Assembly: GCA_000002445.1 (NCBI GenBank)
Contig: CM000207.1
Span: forward strand, 1,312,001-1,376,000
Length of the DNA stretch: 64,000 nt
Origin: Trypanosoma brucei
Taxonomy: Eukaryota
Reading direction: 5' to 3'
Shown: positions 32,940 to 59,135 of the stretch, in pieces
Layout: each line of letters starts with the position of its first letter
Numbering within the stretch: position 1 is the first letter of the stretch
Notes under the pieces: generated by a model
Database searches by the model: none
What the model saw: only the letters and a program-made list of their open reading frames with translations
Told to the model about the DNA's origin: nothing
Program-made: the position numbers and the translations under genes

Positions 32940-33813
32940 CTATGAAGTAAAATAAGCAGTCTATGTACCGAAGCACCCTCTGTTGTGAGGACCACAACAC
33001 TCAGTGGTGATCCTGTCCACCTACCTACCTACCAATCTTTTCTTTCCTCCCCAACCCTATTTCGGGCAGGCGAAAAGTCACCTGCTTTCGAAAGGAAGTT
33101 AGAAGAACCCACAGTCCAAGAGAAAACGCATATCCAAGATGAACGTGAAGAAGAACGTTCCGAGTGGGTGGGGCATGTGAATATGTTCGTGCAAATACGG
33201 CAACAGTGAATCTCAACAGTAACTTGAATAAGAGAAACTAAGTAAGTTTATATACACAAATGACGACGTACCGGGTACAGACAAAAAAGTGTTGCAGTGG
33301 CAGCAATGGATGCGTAAATGGACGCGGAAAACTCAATAAACCCAACGGCACCCCTCACACACAATCCAATAATATCTAAGATGCATGCAAGCGTAACGGA
33401 CATAAACCTCCAACAAACTTAAGGGTTTAATATCCCATCATCATGATTGTTAACTCTCACGTAAACACAAATCCTCGTTTCAACCCTCCCTCGGAATCTT
33501 CTCCAAACAGCGACGCCTTGCCCCTGTTTTATGTTCTCATACCTGCAACCAGAATCAGCCTCAATTTTTGTAGAGACCCTTACGACGGAAAGAAAAGTGC
33601 TGACAGTCCCGTGTCAGTCACAAACAGTAGCGAAATCCAAACATTGGCACCACCGAATGGGAGGAAAGGCAAGCAATCGGTAAGGATTGAAAGTGAGGGA
33701 CGAATAATAAACAAGCGAACTATAACCAACACAAAAGGAAGAGGATGTTATGGGTGTAACAAATCGTAATGATATTAACTCCCATTGAAGTCCCCTTCCC
33801 CCTCCTGCTCCTC

Positions 33814-34119
33814 TTAGTACCTCTGGCCACCCTTTTCATGCCCTACGAGTTTCAGCAGCTTTTCCAACTCCTCTTTCTCCTCCTCCAGAAACTGTGATCG
33901 TAACTTTATTTCCTCCTTGACGACCTCCTGCCGAACCTCCTCGCATTTGCGCTGATGTTGAAGCCACTCCTTCTTAAATTGCGACACGTACGCGAGTTGG
34001 TCGTCTATCTCACGAATCATGTTGTCAATGACACGTAACGTCCCCTTCGCTTGTCGCCGTTGTACCTCCATGCGAACAATGCGCTCTGTGCGAATTTGCT
34101 GCTGCAGTGCTGGGTCCAT
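33814..34119 (-). CDS. Small coiled-coil protein, 101 aa, hypothetical
   Basis: ATG confirmed at 34119-34117 (MDPALQQQIRTE). A purine-rich plus strand, meaning a pyrimidine tract on the coding strand, lies immediately upstream at ~34260-34440. Confidence 0.4.
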   Translation of the reverse strand: MDPALQQQIRTERIVRMEVQRRQAKGTLRVIDNMIREIDDQLAYVSQFKKEWLQHQRKCEEVRQEVVKEEIKLRSQFLEEEKEELEKLLKLVGHEKGGQRY

Positions 34120-34259
34120 TCTCTAACTTCAGTCCTTTCCAAAAGTGTTTATTTACTTGTAGCTCCCTCCGTCCCTCCTGCTTTTTTTTGTACCTTCCTT
34201 CAAACTAATTTGTTTCTAAACTTTCGTCCAGATTTTCGATCTGAGCTAGTACCCCAGCG

Positions 34260-34440
34260 CATAACACAAAGAAAACAAAAAAGAAAAAAAAATAAGCGGG
34301 GGAAAGGGGAAGCGAACAGGAATAGGGAGAAACAGGGCGAAAAAAAAAAAACGAAGAACAAAGACACACACACACACACACACACGAATAAAAAAAAATT
34401 CAAACGCAGTAAGCAAAAAAAAAAACGTACACTGCCACGG
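34260..34440 (-). promoter_or_regulatory. Putative polypyrimidine tract region (minus strand) upstream of the 101-aa coiled-coil ORF
   Basis: The plus strand is almost pure purine here (aaagaaaacaaaaaagaaaaaaaaataagcgggggaaaggggaagcgaacaggaatagggag...), so the transcribed strand is pyrimidine-rich. It includes an (AC)n run at 34364-34385. Confidence 0.35.
34364..34385. repeat. (AC)n microsatellite, ~11 units
   Basis: acacacacacacacacacacac read directly. Confidence 0.9.
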
Positions 34441-35963
34441 CGAACAAAAAATCATCTTTTTTTGAAAACACTACGATCGGATAGCACCGGGAAGAAGAGG
34501 GAAAGAAAAAAGAATCCCTCATGTGGTGTGGTGGATGAAAAAAATGAAGAGAGTACACGAAGGTAACCACACCACCGGCACAAAACAACACGGACGAGTA
34601 AACGTTTCTGGCACTGTCCAGTGTGTCAATGAGAAAGTTAAGAAGGACGGTGGTAACAATAGTTAAAAAAAAAAAATTAACCCTAAGCAGCGCCTCAGTC
34701 GGGAGGGCCGCACTAGAAGGGAAACGCACACAATAAGCGAATGCGCAACCTAAATACAAAAAGCAACCATTAAAAAAAAAAAATGCGAAACACCAAATTA
34801 CGAAAAAAAAAACATAAATATATATACGCGTGTATGTATAACAGAATGCGCAAAGGTATAAATATATATATATATTTATGTTCGCTTAAAGCCGTACTTG
34901 TACCAAGCAACACAAATCCTTTTAACTTCCTCACCAACGTACACGGGTCTAACATGCAACAACACCCTCTATTTTCTCTTTACACTACATCCAGTGGTTC
35001 CTCTCCACCAGAATGAGAAAAGGTGTCTACTTACAACATTATAGAGTAGATCGTACTGTACTTAAGTTTTGCCTAACGCTCACAAAAAAGGGGGGAGAGC
35101 GCCTTATCTGCCTGCAACACCTCCCCCTCCCCCGGTCCCTCCGCACTTACACACATGTGCTTTAATTACCGCAACGATTACTCCCCTACGGGGGCTCCCA
35201 GTGATGGTAACACCGGTAAATCTCGCTTAACACCCTTGCTTGGTAGCAGTCCCCTCCAACTCTCTAGCGCTGGGAGCGATGTTGCGTTCTGCTTGCCTCC
35301 GCAGCCGGCGGCGCTGTCATCTCTCAGTGCCGTGGCTTGGGGAGCAAGCGGAGGAAGGCGGAAGGGTCGCGACATCGTAGAATCCTCTGCGTCACACGTA
35401 CACATGTGCCTTGTCACGGGGCTCGCGGACAAGAGAAGCACTTAAACAACTGTCTATGCCTATTGCGGATTTACACGTAACAACACACATTTGTTAGGAG
35501 AGGAGCAATAAAAAGATTACACAAGCAAACTGACGTCTCACGGCCATGAAGATGTACCAATGTAGCGAAAGAACAATGTTCACGGGGCGCGCAAATAAAG
35601 AAAGAAAGAAACAGTAATACACTCAATGCGTGTCGTCCCGGCTGCTGGTGAGCCATTTCCAGCACAACACCCCTCCAACACCCGAAGGATAAGCAAAGTC
35701 GTTCGCAGCACTACTCAAGATACGATCTACTCCAGTCTAACCACTGAAGATGGAACAACTGTGGAACGTGCTTCACAAGAAGAAAAAGAAGCTCCAGTTG
35801 CGGCGCTGCGCATGAAGGACTCACATCCATTCACCTTCCCATGAGAATAAGTTAAATACACTGGAACATGAACAGACAAATAAAAAGACAAAACTGAACA
35901 GCGGTGTATAGACATATACATTAACTTATTACCCTCAGCTACTTTCTCTTTTCCTTCTTTTTC

Positions 35964-42052: not shown

Positions 42053-43105
42053 TTAAAGCTTGCTCCTCTCCCTTTGGACTCCACCACGATCATTGTACTT
42101 TTGTTTGAAAGACATACACAGCTCCACTTCACGCCTGCTACCCATAAAAACGGGAGCACGCTGGTGAATTTCCTTCGGAACGACATCAAGCAACCGCCCG
42201 TCGCCCGTCAACGCCAAGCCACCTGCTTGTTCAATAAGGAACGCCATGGGTGCAGCCTCATACATGAGCCGTAACTTCCCTCCTGGTTTCTTCTTATCCC
42301 CCGGGTAGCAGAAGATCCCGCCATATAACAGGGTCCGGTGGATGTCCGCAACCATAGAACCAATATAGCGAGCGGTGTACGCCTTTTCTCCTTCGTTTTT
42401 GATATGATGCAAATATTGCTTGAACCACGCGTCCCAGTGACGGAGGTTACCTTCGTTCACACTGTAAATGGGTCGTGATTGTGGAAGTGTGATGTTTGGA
42501 TGGGTGTGGATGAACTCACCAACAGTCGTGTCAAGCGTAAAGCCGTTTACACCACTGCCAGTGGTAATAACAAGGTTGGTAGCGGTACCGTACATGGCAT
42601 AACCTGAGGAAACGAGGTATCTTCCTGAGAGGCGCGGGAGCACCTTAAGAGCGTCTTTTGTAGTTCGCACTTTCGTTCCCTTCGGTAGGCACCAGATGCC
42701 CCACACTGAGCCAATAGATATGTTTGCGTCGATATTACTGCTGCCGTCCAGAGGGTCAAAGAATACAACGTAGTCGCCCTGCTGTCCGGAACTGACTACC
42801 ACAATTGACTCGTCCTCCTCACTCCCCATGAAAGACACGCTGGCAGAGGACATCAGGTAAGCCTTGAAGGCGTTATTTGCAACCACGTCTAACTTCGCCT
42901 GCTCGTCACCCGTGGCGTTGGCCCGTCCATCATTAAGATGACCAAAGAGACCTTGCGCACCTGCGCTGCGGATGTTCATCTCAATCACTTTTACGGACGT
43001 TTGAATCGCCATCATGAGTAATGTGAACGCCCCACGGCTGCCCTTTGGTTGGTTATGCATTAAGAACTGCATCAACGTGGAGGGGACGCGGCTGTAGTCA
43101 GGCAT
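42053..43105 (-). CDS. FBP: Fructose-1,6-bisphosphatase, glycosomal (C-terminal PTS1 tripeptide SKL)
   Basis: FBPase core ...TGDEQAKLDVVANNAFKAYL...VVFFDPLDGSSNIDANISIGSVWGIW... with metal-binding DPLDGSSN, and the GRLLDV/ APVFMGS C-terminal region. It ends ...RERSKL-stop. The track ORF starts at 43252 inside a T-rich tract (FFFFFLRLFF). The first sensible ATG is at 43105-43103 (MPDYSRVPSTLMQF). Confidence 0.9.
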   Translation of the reverse strand: MPDYSRVPSTLMQFLMHNQPKGSRGAFTLLMMAIQTSVKVIEMNIRSAGAQGLFGHLNDGRANATGDEQAKLDVVANNAFKAYLMSSASVSFMGSEEDESIVVVSSGQQGDYVVFFDPLDGSSNIDANISIGSVWGIWCLPKGTKVRTTKDALKVLPRLSGRYLVSSGYAMYGTATNLVITTGSGVNGFTLDTTVGEFIHTHPNITLPQSRPIYSVNEGNLRHWDAWFKQYLHHIKNEGEKAYTARYIGSMVADIHRTLLYGGIFCYPGDKKKPGGKLRLMYEAAPMAFLIEQAGGLALTGDGRLLDVVPKEIHQRAPVFMGSRREVELCMSFKQKYNDRGGVQRERSKL

Positions 43106-43129
43106 TGCAAATCTGGGAAGAGTGGTGTC

Positions 43130-43200
43130 GTTAATGAAATTGAAAAACAGTCGCAAAAAAAAAAAGAAAAAGCGTATGCGTATGCGTATGCGTAGCTTAA
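43130..43200 (-). promoter_or_regulatory. Putative polypyrimidine tract plus AG trans-splice acceptor region upstream of the FBPase gene
   Basis: The minus strand reads CGCTTTTTCTTTTTTTTTTTGCGACTGTTTTTCAATTTC ... CCCAG|ATTTGCAATGCC, a T-rich tract followed by AG about 10 nt before the ATG at 43105. In kinetoplastids such tracts direct spliced-leader addition; this rests on family knowledge and is not verified experimentally. Confidence 0.45.
43172..43195. repeat. (GCGTAT)4 hexanucleotide repeat
   Basis: gcgtatgcgtatgcgtatgcgtag read directly, just upstream of the FBPase polypyrimidine tract. Confidence 0.9.
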
Positions 43201-43572
43201 AAATTACATCCATTTGTTTTCGCGCCAACGCATACGGGTTCGTGGTGACCAAAACAAGAAGTCGTTGAAGATACGGTTTTCAAGGAAAGAAAGAGATGGG
43301 AGGAAAAGAAAAAAGTTAGTACACAAACACATGCACGCGAACGCACAAAAGGAGCGGCAAGGGCAGATACACAAACGCACAGATGAAAAGGAAGAGAACG
43401 AAAAATAAGATCGAGTGATGGGAAGGACTGCTATCGAAGCAGCGAACAGGGGAAGGAGGTATCGAGAAGTGGAGGGATTAATAATAACAACGAAAATATT
43501 CGTACAGCTGCTTACAAACATAAACCCAACACCTCCTTCGAGGCTTCGGGTTCCCCTTTACTTTTTTGTTTT

Positions 43573-43630
43573 AATATATATATAAATATATATAAAGTAA
43601 TACATATGCATATATATATATATATATATG
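43573..43630. repeat. AT-rich (TA)n microsatellite cluster
   Basis: aatatatatataaatatatataaagtaatacatatgcatatatatatatatatatg read directly. Confidence 0.85.
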
Positions 43631-45671
43631 CACAACGCTGCCGGCATCTTTCAGGGGTTGGAAGGTAGAAGGAGGGAAGGGACAAAGAAAAACAGTAAGA
43701 ACAATCCCCCTTTCAAAAAAAAAAACACAAATAAAAGAAAGAAAGAAAGGAGGGTGAAGAAAAAAAAATTACAACAAAGTGCGCGAACGAACCAAGTGTC
43801 ACATTTCACCCTCGTTCATCAGTTACAGCCCCTCCTCCTTCTCCTTCTTCACATAACATCTTGCCACTCTCGTGCGCCCGCAACTTTTCAGTGGTCCACA
43901 GAATAAACGGCAAATCAGAACAAGAAGAAAAATAAATGAGAAGAAAAAAAAAAAGTAGGAATGCAGAAAGTACGACAACAGGTTTTGGAAATAAGGAACA
44001 ACCCAGCGGCCAGCGACAGTGAGTCACTCAAGTATTCGTAAGGGCCCACTCACCACGCAAACGAAACCCACAAGCCTCGTGCAGATTTACCACAAGCAAA
44101 CACCCCTCACTTTTCTCCCAAAAGGGCACCGCCGCTTATATCTCCCTGCACTTCACTGAACATCCTCTTGCGGATAATCATATTTATTACTTCTCTCACA
44201 TTCTGCTTTTTTTTTTTTTTTAAGCTTCCTTTCTCTTATCCTTCCTCTTTTTTCCCCCTTCTGTTTTTATTAGTGTTGATGACAAGAGCAACAATGATGT
44301 GGCGTGTCCGCATGATGCCCTTCTCCCTTCTCCCTGACACTCAACTCTCGGGTCAAAGGGGCGGAAATTGAGCCCCATTATTTCCCTATTTCATGGTATG
44401 AAATTACCCGACTGAACCGTCCCCACATTCCACCCATCCTCTGAAAGTTGGGTCGGAGGAAAGGAGGGATCACAACAAAAAACACAACAAAAATAAAGAA
44501 ATCAAAAGAGTGTCTGGAAGAGCGATTAAGAAGAGAAGTGCTTGTTCCTGACATACGCACACACACACACACACACGGTAAGTACATTTTGTTTTTTTTT
44601 CCTCTCGCTTTGCATTTCCCTACCCATCTATAAACATAAAAATAATAAATATGAACTCTTACCCTGTCATTCTTGAATTCACACACGCTTCGCCTCCTTT
44701 TCCTCATCCCTTCCTTCCTTTTACCTATAGCCCCTACACGATAGTCCTTCTCATACCACTGTTGCGTCTCTCATATTCTTTGTGTTATGAACCACGTACC
44801 GCTCTCATTTCATATATATTGTTGATTCACTCCATTTGTCTGTTTATTTATTTGTCTGTTTTTCTTTTTTTTTCTTTTGTCTTTTCCTTCTTACTTTGCT
44901 CAAACACATTCCGCACACTACAACATGTTGCCGTGTACTGACAGTTTTGCCTTGGTTCCCGAAATGTTCTCCCACAGTTTGCTTGTTTTCGTTTTTGCTT
45001 TCTTTCTTTTCTTTTATATGAAATTTCTCCACTGCTCGCCTTTCCCCTCTCCCCACACACAGACACACAGACACACACATTGAGTTTCACCTCCTTTTCT
45101 TCTCTCTTTTTTTTTTCTCTCTGATTCCTTCTCTTTTCATTGTTTCACCGGCACGCGGAGGGTCGCAACGCAGCCAGGAGGGAGAAAAGCCAAAGCAAAT
45201 GAAGCCAAAGTATGAAAAGAAGGAAGAGAGGGAGGGAGAGAAGAAATGAGAAGTGGGTGAAGGGAAACAACAAAACAAAAACAAAAGATGGAAAGAGAGC
45301 TCGAATGGAGTAACGCGCGGATCCGGACATGAGAAGAGCTTTGAGTGACAAAAGGGTAGAAAGAGAGAAGGGAAAAGAGAAAAAATGAAGAACCGAAAGA
45401 AAAAAAAAATAAAACAAAGAGAAAGCAGTACGGTACTAGATTTCACACTTATGTGATATTCGTTTTGGCTTCTCTCATTTTCTTTTTTTTCTTTTTTACC
45501 TTTAATTATTTTTTACTTATTATAATAATTATTTTTTGTGTGATTCGTCCCAACGCGCTTCTCCATCCCCGCACCTCTTCCCTCCCTTCTACACACACCC
45601 CACCTCTCTCCCTCTTTCTCTCGTCTCAACACATCGCAACTCCGTTAGATACATGTATTCCTCCATACCAT

Positions 45672-45748
45672 ACATATATATATATATATATACGTATATA
45701 TGTAAATAAATATATATATATATATATATTATTATTATTATTATTTTT
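45672..45748. repeat. (TA)n plus (TTA)5 compound microsatellite
   Basis: catatatatatatatatatacgtatatatgtaaataaatatatatatatatatatattattattattattatt read directly. A further (TA)10 is at 45909-45929. Confidence 0.9.
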
Positions 45749-46368
45749 ATGTATGTTGATTCGCTTACTTGTCTTTCTCCTTTTTCTGACAGTCTTTTTT
45801 TTCATTTTGATTTCTACCTATTCTTATTTGGCGTTCTTCTTTGTTGTTGTTGTTGTTTTTTTTTTCAACGATTCATATCGCATCGCGTTACATTAATAGT
45901 TCTTCTCCTATATATATATATATATATATTCGTCTCTCCTTTTTCCGAGTCGCTTCCTTTGATTATAAGAGTAAATCTACCGCTCTTTCATATATCTCAC
46001 AGCATCTTTTTTACTTCATCTCTCCTGACTCACTTTTAACCATATTTTTTTTATTTTTTTTTCGCACTTATTTTTTTGTTTTCTCACATTTTTAAATTTG
46101 GGATTCTTCTCTCACTTAATCTTATATAAGTCTTCATTAATTCATTACTCTGTTCCGTCCTCCTTTTCTCCCTCGATAGACTTTGTTTTCTGTTGGTCTC
46201 TATTTCTCCCGTCCCCTTGTATCACATTTCATTTTCTTCTCTCTGCCTTCACTTCTCGTTCTTCCCTTACTGTTTTACCCTCCATCAGATTCTTTTATAT
46301 TCGTACACTCGCTCACTTCCGTCTACTTCCGCTTTACACCAGTCTCGCTCGTACGTACATTGGTAAGT

Positions 46369-47352
46369 TTAACTCCACTGCTGTGTAATGCCAGGATACA
46401 CGTTTCCTTGCATTTGCTGTTGTTGGGGCGGCGGCGGCGGCTGTTGCTGCGGCTGCTGCTGCTGCTGCTGCTGTGGGGGCTGAGGCGGTTGTGGCTGCGG
46501 GGGCTGTGGCACGCCGTCCTCGTTCACCACTAACGATATGGCGGGGTTGCTCGTCTTGATGTTATCCATCCGCGAGAACTGAATATCAAGAGTAAAGGTC
46601 ACCGTCTCACCGATGGTCACCGGTTGGCCTTGCAGGATGTTCTTTACGTTCTCCGCAGTCGCCTTACTGTCAAACTGCACCAACGCCTGCACGCGGTTGT
46701 GGTTACGCTGGCTGGACTCGTTCTTGGGTAGGACGACAATTTTCTGCACGGCACCATAGTTGCAGAAGATCTGATAAACAATCATGGGGGTGATAGACGT
46801 GGCAGCAGAGACATCGTATTGGGTATTGAACATAGACACCAGCAGCGTTTTGCTTGTGTGCTGCGTGGCGGTGAGCTCCTGGTGATTGCTGTACCGAATG
46901 TATACACGGCGGCCGTCAATCTCAGCGTACCCGGCCTCTCGGAAAAAATCTACCAGTTGCTGAGCGCTCTTGGTGGATTCCATCTCTACGAGCGCCTGGT
47001 TCATCTGCCGAAGCATCACAATGTGCTTGATATTTCCAAAATTCTGCACAAGGTTTTGTATGCTCAACTGAGTCACGTTGGGCGTTATATTACGCATATG
47101 AATGACACGGCTCACCTCCCCTATTTCGTTATTGCGAGTCCGCGGCGGGCGTTGCACCATCTGACGACCGATCTGTAGCTGCTGTGGTTGCTTTTGAGCG
47201 TCAAAACCACCCCTGCCTTGGCCAGGGTTACCGTAGTTCTGCATCATTCCAGGGTTCCCATGCTGGGACACCTGAGGCGGCATCATGTTCTGATAGGGCA
47301 TCATATTAGGAGCGCCGTACAGACTGTTTTGAGTAAAAGGTTGGCTGTACAT
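46369..47352 (-). CDS. DRBD3: PTB/hnRNP-L-type RRM RNA-binding protein (DRBD3/PTB1-like), with Q/P-rich N- and C-termini
   Basis: SRVIHMRNITPNVTQLSIQNLVQNFGNIKHIVMLRQMNQALVEMESTKSAQQLVDFF...RVYIRYSNHQEL closely parallels PTB RRM1 (VLHLRNLP...KNQAFLEMNTEEAA...PIYIQFSNHKEL). A second RRM-like block follows. The C-terminus PQPPQPQPPQPPQQQQQQQ is encoded by (CAG/CCG)n. ATG confirmed at 47352-47350. Gene-symbol assignment is from memory of T. brucei DRBD3 architecture and is not verified. Confidence 0.75.
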   Translation of the reverse strand: MYSQPFTQNSLYGAPNMMPYQNMMPPQVSQHGNPGMMQNYGNPGQGRGGFDAQKQPQQLQIGRQMVQRPPRTRNNEIGEVSRVIHMRNITPNVTQLSIQNLVQNFGNIKHIVMLRQMNQALVEMESTKSAQQLVDFFREAGYAEIDGRRVYIRYSNHQELTATQHTSKTLLVSMFNTQYDVSAATSITPMIVYQIFCNYGAVQKIVVLPKNESSQRNHNRVQALVQFDSKATAENVKNILQGQPVTIGETVTFTLDIQFSRMDNIKTSNPAISLVVNEDGVPQPPQPQPPQPPQQQQQQQPQQQPPPPPQQQQMQGNVYPGITQQWS

Positions 47353-48160
47353 TTGACCCCCTTTAAATCCTTATGAAACACAACTGCTAACCTGTTGAAA
47401 ATAATTGTAACGATGGAGAACAAGAGCAGGGTGATCAAAAGACCAACACAATGGCACAATGTTTGCAGTCAGGGAACGGGTCAGGAAGCAAAAGTTCAGC
47501 ACCCCTTTTCCCTTCACGCTGTTCGGTGCTACGGGACCTTGTGATGATATATGTGAGAAACAAGTTGCCAAACCCCGATTGCTCTGTACATCAGGGTCAA
47601 TGGTTGCCGCCTTGTCAAAGCTTAATACGACAATACCCCCATGACTGAAAGAGTTAATAAACAAGGTAAGAAAACAAATAAGAAGTGTCATATTGTCATA
47701 ATTTCTTCTGCTAATTTTTACACACTCTTTATAACCCCTTCCCTGCCCACGACTCGTGACGTTCACCTCATCCTCCAACAGGACTGCTACGGCAGTGCAA
47801 GGTCCAGGATGAATGAAAATGAGCCGAGTAACAAAAGAGAAGGAAAAAACGAGGAAACCAACAAAGTGAAAAACAAGTTGGAAGGGAGCATAGCGCTTGT
47901 TTGGCAAACCAACAACGTTCAGATGCCCCTCCTGGACGAATAAAGGGAGTGGGGAGTGAAAGGCTTCAGCAAGAGAGCTCTCTCCAGTCCCCCATATTTT
48001 CCATCAAAAATGGAAAACAACAAAATATGTGTAACAACGGTAAACACAAACGTTAGCGTCAAAGTAGTGGTCGTCGCTTAACTGTAAAAACAAGTATGTA
48101 TGGACGCACGCACGCAAGCACACGTTTTAGATGCAGTGTAGTATATTTATCTATGGTTAT

Positions 48161-57786: not shown

Positions 57787-59135
57787 TCGCTCCTTAACCC
57801 TCACTGCCCCTCACGGTTGCGAAAGCACCCGCTCTTTGGGTGCAAATAGGAAATAAACAAAATTAAAGCAAAGCAAAGGCGATGAAGCAACGTCGCGGAG
57901 ATATGCAACACGAAAGCACATGAACACGTATGCACAAGCCTGAATGGGGTGCCACTGTCACCTTTCACTACAGGAAGAAAAATGATGCCCCGGGGGGGGG
58001 CATATGACCCTCAACCTCGTACTACGCTAGTTTCCAAGAGGGAGCAAGTATTTCCCAAACAAACGATACTTCACAAAGAAACAAAAAAAACCTACTGAAT
58101 ATGCGATTTGCCCTTCCCTTGGAATATACTGGTCGCTACGCCCATATCGTCTTCTGTCCCTGAACTACGGAGCCGCACTGCTGTCCATACATCTTAGTAC
58201 TTCCACCACAGGAACGGGGAATTGTCCTTCGACAATGTTCCCTTGCTATTCACGCACGGGTAGACGCGGTTCATTCCAGTCACCAGGGAGTACGAAGCGA
58301 AGACGCATCCAACAGCCGAAAATGCACAAAGGGCGTAAAAGCCCTTAAGCGTATTTGCCATCGTACGCTGGCCGCGGGCGAAAGTAGTTTGCTCATGACC
58401 CAATGGCTCCTTAATGAGTTGGTGGCCAAGACGGGAGTACGACCGACGAAGCATTCTTCACTTTATCGTAGAAGGTGCAATAGTATGCCAATGTATATGC
58501 GCGTCTCCTACGTGCAATCACTATGGGGAAAAACCTAGCAGTTGTAATGTAAGTGCACAAATCTGCGAGTTTCGTGGACAAATAAAAAGAATGGGGGAAA
58601 CCAAGCGAGCTAAACATGTACACAACGACTTGGGATAGAAGGCGGTAACGCATTGCAAACATATATCATTTGTTTTCGTTTTACCTAATTCACACCTCTT
58701 TTCACGTACTTACACTTATTTATATGATTATGCCTCCTGAAAATTTACTGGGGGTTCGGTACAGGGCACGTTACACTTACTTTGCCTCGTACAACAAACA
58801 TGAGAAGAGGTGAAGTGATTCAATTGGTGTGGGTAAAAAACGGTATCGGTCAGCGCATAAGTGCGCGTGTACACATGTATATAATTCTCTTATTCTTATA
58901 TAAGGGTTCAAAAGAATCTGTGCGCCACAACCGTGGGTATTCCACAGTCGCCTAAAACAAACAAACAGAACCACAGCATTACACCACGCCATACAGCCTG
59001 GCTTGTGTTGGCATACTGTTGCACATGCGACGCCATCCTCTCCAGGCTCTCCGTTTTGGGCCAAGGCAAATAGAAAACGGGTCTCAAAATAAAAAAAAGT
59101 GGTTTTAACACATTATTTTTTCCTCTCCTCCTTCA

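What the first reader, a model, noticed from the sequence alone, without database searches (positions are those of the whole stretch)
43253..46368. 3.1-kb intergenic/UTR region with alternating homopurine and homopyrimidine blocks and dense microsatellites between the PTB-like RBP gene and FBPase
The plus strand alternates between blocks that are almost exclusively purine (43230-43800, 44440-44560, 45160-45420) and blocks that are almost exclusively pyrimidine (44160-44340, 44580-45150, 45450-46370). The purine and pyrimidine blocks are roughly mirror-complementary, which allows long-range RNA pairing or H-DNA. The region also contains (GCGTAT)4, (AT)n, (AC)n, (TA)n and (TTA)5. It is the 3'UTR and downstream spacer of an RNA-binding-protein gene. 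PTB-family genes often autoregulate through their own UTRs, and unusually long structured 3'UTRs are regulatory hot-spots in trypanosomes. This is the window's largest stretch with no ORF, yet it is highly non-random.
Basis: seen in the sequence. Interest (0 to 1): 0.5.

Follow-up and report, generated by a model that had tools for sequence, protein, structure and literature searches.

The report
Long purine-rich DRBD3 mRNA 3'UTR

Summary
Window 43109-46368 has far stronger purine/pyrimidine segregation than chance or any other intergenic region here, and all the listed microsatellites are present.

The window matches T. brucei TREU927 chromosome 9. Published poly(A) mapping gives DRBD3 a predominant 3'UTR of 2962 nt (end near window 43407), with very dispersed alternative sites. 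So the region is almost entirely the DRBD3 3'UTR plus the FBPase splice-acceptor zone.

The class is known. [quoted passage not shown] A DRBD3 UTR fragment (window 45321-46769) is listed as a positive hit in the published reporter screen. DRBD3 translation efficiency is in the 99th percentile in procyclic forms.

Not supported:
- Specific "mirror complementarity": pairing between blocks is what their composition predicts.
- A DRBD3 consensus site for autoregulation.
- Any ncRNA.

The small new point is that the purine-rich block right after the stop codon recurs in five Trypanosoma species without sequence conservation, and is absent in Leishmania donovani.

Interest is low.

The parts
46369..47352 (-). 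DRBD3/PTB1 (Tb927.9.8740) coding sequence, 327 aa
   Evidence: Translation. It is 100% identical to the T. brucei-group RNA-binding protein and has orthologs named DRBD3. The gene ID is confirmed.
47353..47393 (-). DRBD3 5'UTR (39 nt, 47391-47353), preceded by the AG trans-splice acceptor at 47393-47392
   Evidence: Contigs L004 and L005 start with the spliced-leader 3' end (TTG / G) joined to GTTAGCAG. In the genome that sequence directly follows 'caacAG'.
43407..46368 (-). DRBD3 3'UTR, 2962 nt to the predominant poly(A) site (annotated end 43402 in v5.1)
   Evidence: Kolev 2010 Table S13 gives PAS 1355407, 3'UTR 2962 nt, averaged 3'UTR 1764 nt and dispersion 1206. Trenaman 2024 Supplementary Data gives the UTR as 1406358-1409324. 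Both coordinate offsets were checked against the FBPase UTR.
45450..46368 (-). R1: A/G-rich poly-purine block of the mRNA directly after the stop codon. It is pyrimidine-rich on the + strand and contains the (TA)n and (ATA)n arrays.
   Evidence: The purine fraction of the first 300 nt is 0.74. The same composition follows the stop codon in T. cruzi, T. theileri and T. grayi (0.77 each) and in T. vivax (0.63).
45321..46769 (-). Fragment recovered as a positive ('increased') hit in the published 3'UTR massively parallel reporter assay
   Evidence: Trenaman 2024 Supplementary Data row 1069: peak 1408277-1409725, log2FC 4.9, FDR 0.052. The hit threshold is FDR<0.1. Column meanings are inferred from the main text.
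45151..45449 (-). Y1: internal polypyrimidine block of the mRNA. It holds PPTs at 45409-45350 (next AG at 45339) and 45246-45214 (next AG at 45133), and is a candidate alternative processing signal.
   Evidence: PPT/AG scan. The large poly(A)-site dispersion fits internal signals. The reporter hit fragment ends just past the first PPT+AG, and the reporter supplies no processing signal of its own.
44581..45150 (-). R2: second purine-rich block of the mRNA, with a (TG)n/(CA)n array at 45054-45079
43640..44580 (-). Shorter alternating blocks in the mRNA: (GU)n 44576-44558, Y2 44550-44450, R3 44340-44160, Y3 44000-43900, R4 43900-43800, Y4 43800-43640
43109..43406 (-). Spacer and FBPase trans-splicing region. 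PPT 43315-43282 has its first AG at 43197-43196. PPT 43172-43155 has its first AG at 43114-43113. An (ATACGC)4 repeat lies between them.
   Evidence: Sequence scan. The PPT starts 92 nt downstream of the mapped PAS, within the usual 80-140 nt. The FBPase acceptor site that is actually used was not found in the accessible tables.
42053..43105 (-). Fructose-1,6-bisphosphatase (Tb927.9.8720) coding sequence, 350 aa, C-terminal SKL
   Evidence: Translation. Pfam FBPase domains in the called genes.
45101..45243 (.). The only two perfect homopurine/homopyrimidine mirror repeats in the 64-kb window (arm >=10 nt): 45101-45122 and 45223-45243. They flank the R/Y switch at about 45150.

Best explanation
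The region is the ~2.96-kb 3'UTR of the DRBD3/PTB1 mRNA, transcribed from the minus strand. About 300 nt carrying the trans-splicing signals of the downstream FBPase gene follow it.

In the RNA, the long blocks are A/G-rich poly-purine tracts: R1 is 920 nt directly after the stop codon, followed by R2 and R3. Between them lie polypyrimidine tracts and palindromic (AU)n arrays. This is the composition of the published 'pPuT-rich / P5-UTR' class of T. brucei 3'UTRs.

Most likely mechanism:
- The A-rich poly-purine tracts act as dosage-dependent positive elements for translation. This is shown for the class and for a fragment of this UTR in a reporter screen, and it fits DRBD3's very high translation efficiency.
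- The polypyrimidine tracts are the kinetoplastid signals for coupled polyadenylation and trans-splicing. The last ones serve FBPase. That the internal ones give alternative upstream poly(A) sites is inferred from the large site dispersion.
- The polypyrimidine tracts may also pair with and mask the purine tracts. This is a published model and is neither supported nor excluded here.

The blocks are low-complexity sequence held at the level of composition, not sequence.
For: **Strand, genes and synteny.**

**Poly(A) mapping and annotation.** The predominant 3'UTR is 2962 nt, the average 1764 nt and the dispersion 1206 nt. The v5.1 UTR annotation is 2967 nt. No independent novel transcript was mapped in the gap.

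**Transcript contigs.** Contigs with a spliced-leader junction extend at least 458 nt into R1.

**Tract density on the sense strand, compared with the other IGRs of the window.**
- Purine tracts >=10 nt: 9.8/kb vs 2.4/kb
- A-rich purine tracts: 5.7/kb vs 0.7/kb
- (AT)n arrays: 1.7/kb vs 0.15/kb
- Pyrimidine tracts: 5.1/kb vs 4.4/kb (normal)

**Published class description.**

**Reporter screen.** The fragment at window 45321-46769 is a positive hit (FDR 0.052).

**Translation.** DRBD3 translation efficiency is 3.74, the 99th percentile in procyclic forms.

**Conservation of composition.** The first 300 nt after the stop codon are 0.74-0.77 purine in T. brucei, T. cruzi, T. theileri and T. grayi, and 0.63 in T. 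vivax. Most neighbouring genes score 0.36-0.57. There is no primary sequence similarity outside the brucei group.

**Absence outside Trypanosoma.** The block is absent in L. donovani and in two other kinetoplastid contigs. This fits the published species difference in which UTR composition tracks translation.

**Processing geometry.** The PPT lies 92 nt downstream of the mapped PAS.
Against: - The reporter hit is one row of a supplementary table. I could not read its column headers, and the fragment also carries ~400 nt of coding sequence.
- The screen was done only in bloodstream forms, and the paper reports no independent validation of novel hits.
- The upstream poly(A) reads could partly be artefacts of priming on the many genomic A runs in the purine blocks. 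This is my inference and was not checked.
- High translation efficiency could have other causes, such as codon usage.
- Compositional conservation was judged against only 8-26 neighbouring genes per species, not genome-wide. T. cruzi has two other purine-rich 3' flanks within its locus (0.67 and 0.78).
- Within the brucei group, the UTR blocks diverge as fast as other intergenic DNA.
Confidence: 0.75

Rival explanations
1. PTB-type autoregulation. DRBD3 protein binds the internal polypyrimidine blocks of its own 3'UTR (for example Y1). This suppresses processing there and sets the ratio of short to long UTR isoforms, and so its own expression.
For: - Tethered DRBD3 represses processing at a downstream PPT, and binding within 3'UTRs has been suggested to maintain processing patterns.
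- DRBD3 loss activates cryptic splice sites.
- Strong internal PPT+AG combinations exist.
- The poly(A)-site dispersion is very large.
Against: - No match to the published DRBD3 consensus UU(C/U)CCCUCU occurs on the sense strand, in T. brucei or in four orthologous regions. There are only two 1-mismatch hits, about the background rate.
- The papers read contain no statement of self-binding or autoregulation.
- Mammalian PTB autoregulates through exon skipping, not through its UTR (my own knowledge).
Confidence: 0.1
2. Functionless low-complexity spacer. The blocks and microsatellites are products of replication slippage and strand-biased expansion, and they merely happen to be transcribed.
For: - There is no sequence conservation beyond the brucei group.
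- Indels concentrate in repeats, and the substitution rate equals that of other IGRs.
- No structure or family match was found.
- R:Y pairing is explained by composition.
Against: - The same unusual composition sits in the same position in five species that have diverged beyond alignability.
- The fragment is a positive hit in the reporter screen.
- The class has a demonstrated dosage effect on translation.
Confidence: 0.12
3. Specific long-range RNA duplexes (a 'zipper' or thermosensor) between matched purine and pyrimidine blocks, or H-DNA at the DNA level, are the functional unit.
For: - The whole-UTR MFE of -793 kcal/mol compares with -743 +/- 12 for local dinucleotide shuffles (z -4.1). 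With microsatellites removed, z is -3.5. A control IGR gives z -2.3.
- Block segregation raises long-range pairs: 462 native, ~372-392 in local shuffles, 259 in global shuffles.
- The published zipper hypothesis applies to this UTR class.
- Two 21-22-bp mirror repeats are present.
Against: - Adjacent block pairs show no excess stability over composition-matched shuffles (z -0.9 and -1.1). The one significant sub-region contains the AT arrays.
- The strongest helices are (AU)n:(GU)n, (AU)n:(AU)n and low-complexity stretches.
- The absolute stability is lower than that of a control IGR (-915) and of a CDS segment (-1053) of equal length.
- No covariation test is possible because orthologs do not align.
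- Inverted repeats reach only 70-77% complementarity over 35-41 nt.
Confidence: 0.15
4. The gap hides one or more independent genes or non-coding RNAs: a snoRNA, a lncRNA spliced at an internal AG, or a small protein.
For: - Internal PPT+AG sites could yield spliced RNAs.
- T. brucei has many annotated lncRNAs, some of them DRBD3-dependent.
- Mechanical ORFs of 80-147 aa exist, and T. b. gambiense carries two annotated ORFs on the opposite strand.
Against: - Rfam finds nothing at gathering scores, and only low-complexity noise at E<=1. No tRNA is present.
- The ORFs have no Pfam match.
- Tb09.211.0550 is listed among ORFs without a detectable transcript, and no novel transcript was mapped between the two genes.
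- The ORFs lie in low-complexity sequence with no ortholog similarity.
- The lncRNA catalogue itself could not be consulted.
Confidence: 0.08

Closest known systems
A-rich poly-purine tract (pPuT) positive-regulatory 3'UTRs of T. brucei (Trenaman et al. 2024, PMC11405848)
   Same: [quoted passage not shown]
- It is listed as a positive hit in that paper's screen.
- The mRNA is very highly translated.
   Different: - It is not discussed individually in the paper.
- The purine content is organised in unusually long contiguous blocks (920 and 570 nt) rather than in scattered tracts.
- The block directly after the stop codon is compositionally conserved across Trypanosoma species, which that paper did not address for this gene.
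[quoted passage not shown]
   Same: All three sequence ingredients are present: purine blocks, polypyrimidine blocks, and (AU)n palindromic arrays. Predicted long-range R:Y and AU:AU/GU pairing is also present.
   Different: - Thermo-responsiveness and AGO1 dependence of DRBD3 were not checked. DRBD3 is not among the temperature-responsive RBPs named in the text.
- Polypyrimidine tract density here is only average.
- Pairing shows no specificity beyond composition.
HNRNPF/H-regulated mRNAs carrying AAGAA motifs (Gupta et al. 2013, PMC3711420)
   Same: The DRBD3 IGR has 20 AAGAA copies on the sense strand (6.1/kb, vs 1.4/kb in other IGRs). Orthologs have 4-15 per kb. That paper reports up to 11 copies per UTR region.
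   Different: The motif count is a trivial consequence of purine richness. Whether DRBD3 mRNA responds to HNRNPF/H depletion could not be checked, because no supplement is held.
Mammalian PTBP1 autoregulation
   Same: DRBD3 is the closest trypanosome PTB homolog, and its own transcript carries long polypyrimidine tracts.
   Different: - PTBP1 autoregulates through exon-11 skipping and NMD, not through its 3'UTR (own knowledge).
- No DRBD3 consensus site occurs in this UTR.
- No self-binding data were found.

Membership tests
3'UTR of the DRBD3 (Tb927.9.8740) mRNA | Lies directly downstream of the stop codon on the coding strand, within one polycistronic unit | tested here: met
   All ORFs >=150 aa with gene character are on the minus strand. 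The stop codon is at 46369-46371, and FBPase is the next gene on the same strand. The synteny is conserved in five Trypanosoma species.
3'UTR of the DRBD3 (Tb927.9.8740) mRNA | An experimentally mapped poly(A) site at its end | tested here: met
   Looked up in published data. The predominant PAS gives a 2962-nt 3'UTR, with an average of 1764 nt and a dispersion of 1206 nt. The annotated UTR is 2967 nt.
3'UTR of the DRBD3 (Tb927.9.8740) mRNA | Physical continuity with the coding sequence in transcripts | tested here: inconclusive
   Contigs L004 and L005 carry a spliced-leader remnant and continue 458 and 320 nt past the stop codon. They then break at repeats. Continuity over the full 2.96 kb was not seen directly.
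pPuT-rich positive-regulatory 3'UTR / P5-UTR | High density of A-rich poly-purine tracts on the mRNA strand of a long 3'UTR | tested here: met
   A-rich purine tracts >=10 nt occur at 5.7/kb, vs 0.7/kb in the other IGRs of the window. The published FIMO motif itself was not available to me.
pPuT-rich positive-regulatory 3'UTR / P5-UTR | Co-occurring U-rich poly-pyrimidine tracts and palindromic tracts | tested here: met
   There are 15 pyrimidine tracts >=10 nt (5.1/kb, about average) and five (AT)n arrays (1.7/kb vs 0.15/kb).
pPuT-rich positive-regulatory 3'UTR / P5-UTR | Raises reporter expression or translation | tested here: met
   Published screen row: 'increased', log2FC 4.9, FDR 0.052, below the 0.1 threshold. 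Native translation efficiency is in the 99th percentile in procyclic forms. Both are literature look-ups, not new experiments.
pPuT-rich positive-regulatory 3'UTR / P5-UTR | Temperature-responsive, AGO1-dependent expression | not tested
DRBD3 is not named among the responsive RBPs in the text.
PTB/DRBD3 autoregulatory element | DRBD3 consensus binding site UU(C/U)CCCUCU on the mRNA strand | tested here: not met
   No matches occur on the sense strand in T. brucei, T. b. gambiense, T. vivax, T. cruzi, T. theileri or T. grayi. The only exact TTCCCCTCT in the region is on the antisense strand.
PTB/DRBD3 autoregulatory element | DRBD3 protein bound to its own mRNA | not testable with these tools
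   This needs CLIP/RIP data. The papers read contain no such statement.
H-DNA / triplex-forming tract | Homopurine-homopyrimidine mirror repeat of sufficient length | tested here: inconclusive
   Two perfect mirror repeats of 22 and 21 bp lie at 45101-45122 and 45223-45243. They are the only ones in the window. The kilobase-scale blocks are not mirror repeats. Formation in vivo is not testable here.
Structured ncRNA (snoRNA, tRNA, other Rfam family) | Match to a covariance model, or an independently mapped transcript | tested here: not met
   There are no Rfam hits at gathering score in the window and only sub-threshold low-complexity hits at E<=1. No tRNA is present. No novel transcript is mapped in the gap.
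Specific long-range RNA duplex | Stability beyond what block composition gives, or covariation | tested here: inconclusive
   Whole-UTR z is -4.1 (-3.5 without microsatellites), against -2.3 for a control IGR. Adjacent block pairs give z -0.9 and -1.1. Covariation is untestable because orthologs do not align.

The most novel reading that the evidence does not exclude
DRBD3, the trypanosome PTB homolog, sets its own level through its unusual UTR. By occupying the internal polypyrimidine blocks it would suppress proximal polyadenylation. This would switch the mRNA between a short, purely poly-purine, highly translated UTR and a long UTR in which polypyrimidine blocks pair with and mask the purine tracts. 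Selection for this switch would explain why the purine block after the stop codon persists across Trypanosoma without sequence conservation.
Probability: 0.1. Interest if true: 0.55.

Novelty: already known. Interest (0 to 1): 0.2.

Why it matters
Trypanosomes control genes almost entirely after transcription, and DRBD3 is a high-level regulator of mRNA processing. How its own abundance is set therefore matters.

This UTR is a particularly clean, block-organised example of the recently described poly-purine/poly-pyrimidine UTR 'code'. Three features make it a convenient test case for the masking/zipper model and for how internal polypyrimidine tracts are ignored or used:
- its two populations of poly(A) sites;
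- its positive reporter activity;
- its cross-species conservation of composition.

It does not reveal a new kind of element.

Tried and rejected
1. **ncRNA search.** Rfam at gathering score over the whole window found nothing. Rfam at E<=1 over 43000-46500 gave only low-complexity matches far below threshold (mir-297-like on AT repeats, a Plasmodium RNase P fragment at 34 vs 100 bits). There are no tRNAs.
2. **ORFs in the gap.** The eight mechanical ORFs have no Pfam match.
3. **Specific inverted or direct repeats, or duplicated 'R-Y modules'.** Only low-complexity families were found.
4. **Sequence-conserved islands shared with other species.** There are none for T. brucei.
5. **DRBD3 consensus motif.** It is absent on the sense strand.
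6. **FBPase splice-acceptor site and individual alternative poly(A) sites.** The Kolev tables S4, S5 and S12 are truncated in the library. The Nilsson 2010 supplements have no entry for these genes. The Siegel 2010 and Gupta 2013 supplements are not held.
7. **lncRNA catalogues.** The Guegan 2022 supplement is not held. The nanopore lncRNA supplement has nothing at these coordinates. The DRBD3-RNAi tables list DRBD3 itself but nothing in the gap.
8. **Transcript contigs.** Exact-protein look-ups with FBPase and two in-gap ORFs recovered no transcript contigs.
9. **T. congolense ortholog locus.** It is not on record.
10. **Apparent 5.5-kb insertion in the T. equiperdum OVI assembly.** It is bounded by a run of 10 N, that is, a scaffold join.
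Full report
**What is in the sequence**

Window 43109-46368 is the gap between two minus-strand genes.
- The upstream gene (47352-46369) encodes a 327-aa protein with two RRMs. It is 100% identical to the T. brucei-group 'RNA-binding protein', and its orthologs are named DRBD3. The ID Tb927.9.8740 = DRBD3 is confirmed in a published table.
- The downstream gene (43105-42053) is a fructose-1,6-bisphosphatase ending in SKL.
- Every substantial ORF in the 64-kb window is on the minus strand.

**Is the pattern real?**

Yes.
- The SD of the 100-nt purine fraction is 0.200, against 0.057 +/- 0.006 for dinucleotide shuffles.
- 68% of windows are beyond 0.65/0.35, against 3.9% in shuffles.
- There are 25 perfect purine or pyrimidine runs of >=15 nt, against 1.1 expected.
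- No other intergenic region in the window comes close: 11 blocks here, against 0-4 elsewhere.
- All the named microsatellites are present.

The wording 'almost exclusively' overstates it. The blocks are 70-90% pure, and the longest perfect run is 33 nt.

**Where the window comes from, and what is mapped there**

Kolev et al. 2010 (PMC2936537, Table S13) list Tb09.211.0560 (DRBD3) as follows:

| Measure | Value |
|---|---|
| Predominant poly(A) site | 1,355,407 |
| Predominant 3'UTR | 2962 nt |
| Averaged 3'UTR | 1764 nt |
| Dispersion | 1206 nt |

- The FBPase entry (3'UTR 515 nt, PAS 1,353,538) fixes the same offset. Window coordinate = Tb927_09_v4 coordinate minus 1,312,000. The main DRBD3 poly(A) site is therefore at window ~43407.
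- The v5.1 annotation used by Trenaman et al. 2024 gives a UTR of 1,406,358-1,409,324, which is window 43402-46368.
- 'Dispersion' is the read-weighted mean distance to the main site. Roughly half of the poly(A) reads therefore lie far upstream. I could not see the individual sites, and some may be artefacts of the many genomic A runs.
- No 'novel transcript' was mapped in the gap. The window's three (Tb9.NT.50, 51 and 52) lie elsewhere.
- The annotated ORF Tb09.211.0550 (window 45753-45896, +) is listed among ORFs without a transcript.
- Two short public assembly contigs (L004, L005) begin with the last bases of the spliced leader. These are joined to the sequence that follows a genomic AG at 47393-47392, giving a 39-nt 5'UTR. 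The contigs run 458 and 320 nt past the stop codon into the purine-rich block before breaking at repeats.

**Anatomy on the RNA strand**

| Element | Window coordinates | Notes |
|---|---|---|
| R1 | 46368-45450 | 920 nt, 66-81% purine, A-rich; holds the (UA)n and (AUA)n arrays |
| Y1 | 45449-45151 | Strong polypyrimidine tracts at 45409-45350 and 45246-45214, each followed by an AG |
| R2 | 45150-44581 | Second purine-rich block |
| (GU)n | 44576-44558 | Dinucleotide array between R2 and the shorter blocks |
| Shorter Y/R alternations | 44550-43640 | Y2, R3, Y3, R4, Y4 |
| Poly(A) site | ~43407 | Main mapped site |
| PPT | 43315-43282 | 92 nt downstream of the poly(A) site |
| Candidate FBPase acceptors | AGs ending at 43196 and 43113 | Site actually used not determined |

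Compared with the other intergenic regions of the window, the RNA strand scores as follows:
- 4-fold more purine tracts >=10 nt (9.8/kb vs 2.4/kb);
- 8-fold more A-rich purine tracts (5.7/kb vs 0.7/kb);
- 11-fold more (AU)n arrays;
- a normal density of pyrimidine tracts (5.1/kb vs 4.4/kb).

What is unusual is therefore the purine content, not the pyrimidine tracts. Pyrimidine tracts are the ordinary kinetoplastid processing signal.

**Tests of the 'mirror-complementary' idea**

*Repeats.* The repeat finder returns only (AT)n:(AT)n and 35-41-nt low-complexity matches at 70-77% complementarity.

*Folding the 2962-nt UTR and controls:*

| Sequence | MFE (kcal/mol) | Shuffle control | z |
|---|---|---|---|
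| Whole UTR | -793 | global mononucleotide shuffles, -726 +/- 10 | -6.6 |
| Whole UTR | -793 | 100-nt local dinucleotide shuffles, -743 +/- 12 | -4.1 |
| UTR, five microsatellite arrays deleted | -744.5 | 100-nt local dinucleotide shuffles, -698 +/- 13 | -3.5 |
| Control intergenic region, same length | -915 | same method | -2.3 |
| Coding segment, same length | -1053 | same method | +0.5 |

- The strongest helices are (AU)n:(GU)n (27 bp), (AU)n:(AU)n (22 bp) and low-complexity purine:pyrimidine stretches.
- Folding adjacent block pairs against 50-nt local shuffles gives z -0.9 (Y1+R2) and -1.1 (R3..Y4). Only the segment holding the AT arrays is significant (z -3.5).

*Conclusion.* Segregating purines and pyrimidines into blocks raises long-range pairing: 462 pairs spanning >200 nt natively, ~372-392 in local shuffles, 259 in global shuffles. 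Nothing indicates complementarity beyond composition and microsatellites. The UTR is also less stable overall than its neighbours.

*DNA level.* Only two perfect homopurine/homopyrimidine mirror repeats (21 and 22 bp) exist. They are the only ones in the 64 kb, and they lie at 45101-45243.

**Comparison with other species**

The DRBD3-FBPase synteny holds across the Trypanosoma species examined:

| Species | Gap length (nt) | Purine fraction, first 300 nt after the stop |
|---|---|---|
| T. brucei (window) | 3260 | 0.74 |
| T. b. gambiense | 3234 | not computed |
| T. vivax | 2413 | 0.63 |
| T. cruzi | 1648 | 0.77 |
| T. theileri | 1078 | 0.77 |
| T. grayi | 961 | 0.77 |

- Outside the brucei group nothing aligns.
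- Even so, every ortholog begins with an A/G-rich low-complexity block and ends with a pyrimidine block.
- Most neighbouring genes in the same loci have purine fractions of 0.36-0.57. T. cruzi has two other purine-rich flanks, so this is not unique to DRBD3.
- L. donovani has a pyrimidine-rich flank, and no FBPase lies within 9.5 kb. Two other kinetoplastid contigs also lack the block.
- Within the brucei group, the UTR blocks diverge at 3-14 substitutions per kb. This is like other intergenic and even coding segments, so it says nothing about constraint.

**What is already known**

- Trenaman et al. [quoted passage not shown] - Their Supplementary Data list a fragment assigned to Tb927.9.8740 (v5.1 1,408,277-1,409,725 = window 45321-46769). 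It overlaps 1047 nt of the UTR and is marked 'increased', with log2FC 4.9 and FDR 0.052. The paper's hit threshold is FDR<0.1.
- The fragment comprises R1 plus the first polypyrimidine tract and AG of Y1. Because the reporter lacks its own processing signal, this also suggests that Y1 can direct 3'-end formation. That step is my inference.
[quoted passage not shown] It proposes a temperature-sensitive, AGO1-dependent 'zipper'.
- Tinti & Horn 2025 report that translation efficiency tracks A-rich UTRs in T. brucei and T. cruzi, but (A)U-rich UTRs in Leishmania. That matches the phylogenetic distribution I see.
- Jensen et al. 2014 give DRBD3 a translation efficiency of 3.74, the 99th percentile in procyclic forms.

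**Autoregulation**

- DRBD3 is the PTB homolog. Tethering it upstream of a polypyrimidine tract blocks processing, and its loss activates cryptic splice sites. Self-regulation through Y1 is therefore a reasonable idea.
- However, the published DRBD3 consensus UU(C/U)CCCUCU has no match on the RNA strand in any of the six regions examined. I found no report of self-binding.
- The AAGAA motif of HNRNPF/H is abundant (20 copies, 6.1/kb vs 1.4/kb). That follows trivially from purine richness, and I could not check the knock-down data.

**Verdict**

- It is unsupported in its specifics: matched complementarity, H-DNA at scale, PTB autoregulation and an ncRNA.
- The element belongs to a published class, and this particular UTR already appears in that class's data set.
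- The modest addition here is the compositional conservation of the post-stop purine block across Trypanosoma, together with the block-level anatomy relating internal polypyrimidine tracts to the dispersed poly(A) sites.

Noticed in passing
window 57957-58609 (-): The 1.3-kb gap 57805-59135 holds Kolev's novel transcript Tb9.NT.52. It encodes an 86-aa predicted membrane protein with T. cruzi and L. major counterparts and one mass-spectrometry peptide. It is too short to appear in my ORF lists.
   Followed up: partly
window 32940-35938, especially 34391-35459 (-): This is the window's second large gene-free gap (2999 nt). It contains Kolev's novel transcript Tb9.NT.51 (1068 nt) and a few short R/Y blocks. 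Its fold z-score against local shuffles was -2.3.
   Followed up: partly
L001 / L012 (T. equiperdum OVI, CZPT02000123.1), DRBD3-FBPase gap: This assembly shows an 8.8-kb gap holding a 1079-aa CRAL_TRIO/DUF7353 gene on the opposite strand. The left junction is a run of 10 N at the (ATA)n/(AT)n array. It therefore looks like a scaffolding join at a microsatellite, not a real insertion.
   Followed up: yes
L009 11295-11385 and L010 11225-11320: T. theileri and T. grayi share an ~85-nt island of normal complexity inside their purine-rich DRBD3 3'UTRs (GCTACAGACTGGGC...ATCATTAATGA...AATGAA; 81% identity over the best 42 nt). It is absent from T. brucei, T. vivax and T. cruzi, and has no Rfam match.
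   Followed up: partly
L011 10937-20422 (L. donovani CP029503.1): No gene is called for 9.5 kb downstream of the Leishmania DRBD3 ortholog, and tblastn with FBPase finds nothing there. The stretch is dominated by pyrimidine-rich blocks. The Trypanosoma synteny with FBPase is not seen within this span.
   Followed up: partly
window 46400-46500 (-): The C-terminal Q/P-rich tail of DRBD3 (PQPPQPQPPQPPQQQQQQQPQQQPPPPPQQQQ) is encoded by (GCT)n/(GGC)n trinucleotide arrays that abut the UTR.
   Followed up: no
window 47371-47907 (-); window 45753-45896 (+); L002 12214-12678 and 13477-13911 (-): Several 'hypothetical protein, unlikely' ORFs are annotated in the DRBD3 flanks: Tb09.211.0570, Tb09.211.0550, and two opposite-strand ORFs in T. 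b. gambiense. They lie in low-complexity UTR sequence. Kolev lists the TREU927 ones as having no detectable transcript, so they look spurious.
   Followed up: partly
L014 6001-6696 and downstream: The 231-aa gene model P0073 (an unidentified kinetoplastid-like contig) seems truncated. The sequence after its stop contains a further open stretch that would encode a Q/M/G-rich tail. The 3'-flank composition measured there is therefore unreliable.
   Followed up: no
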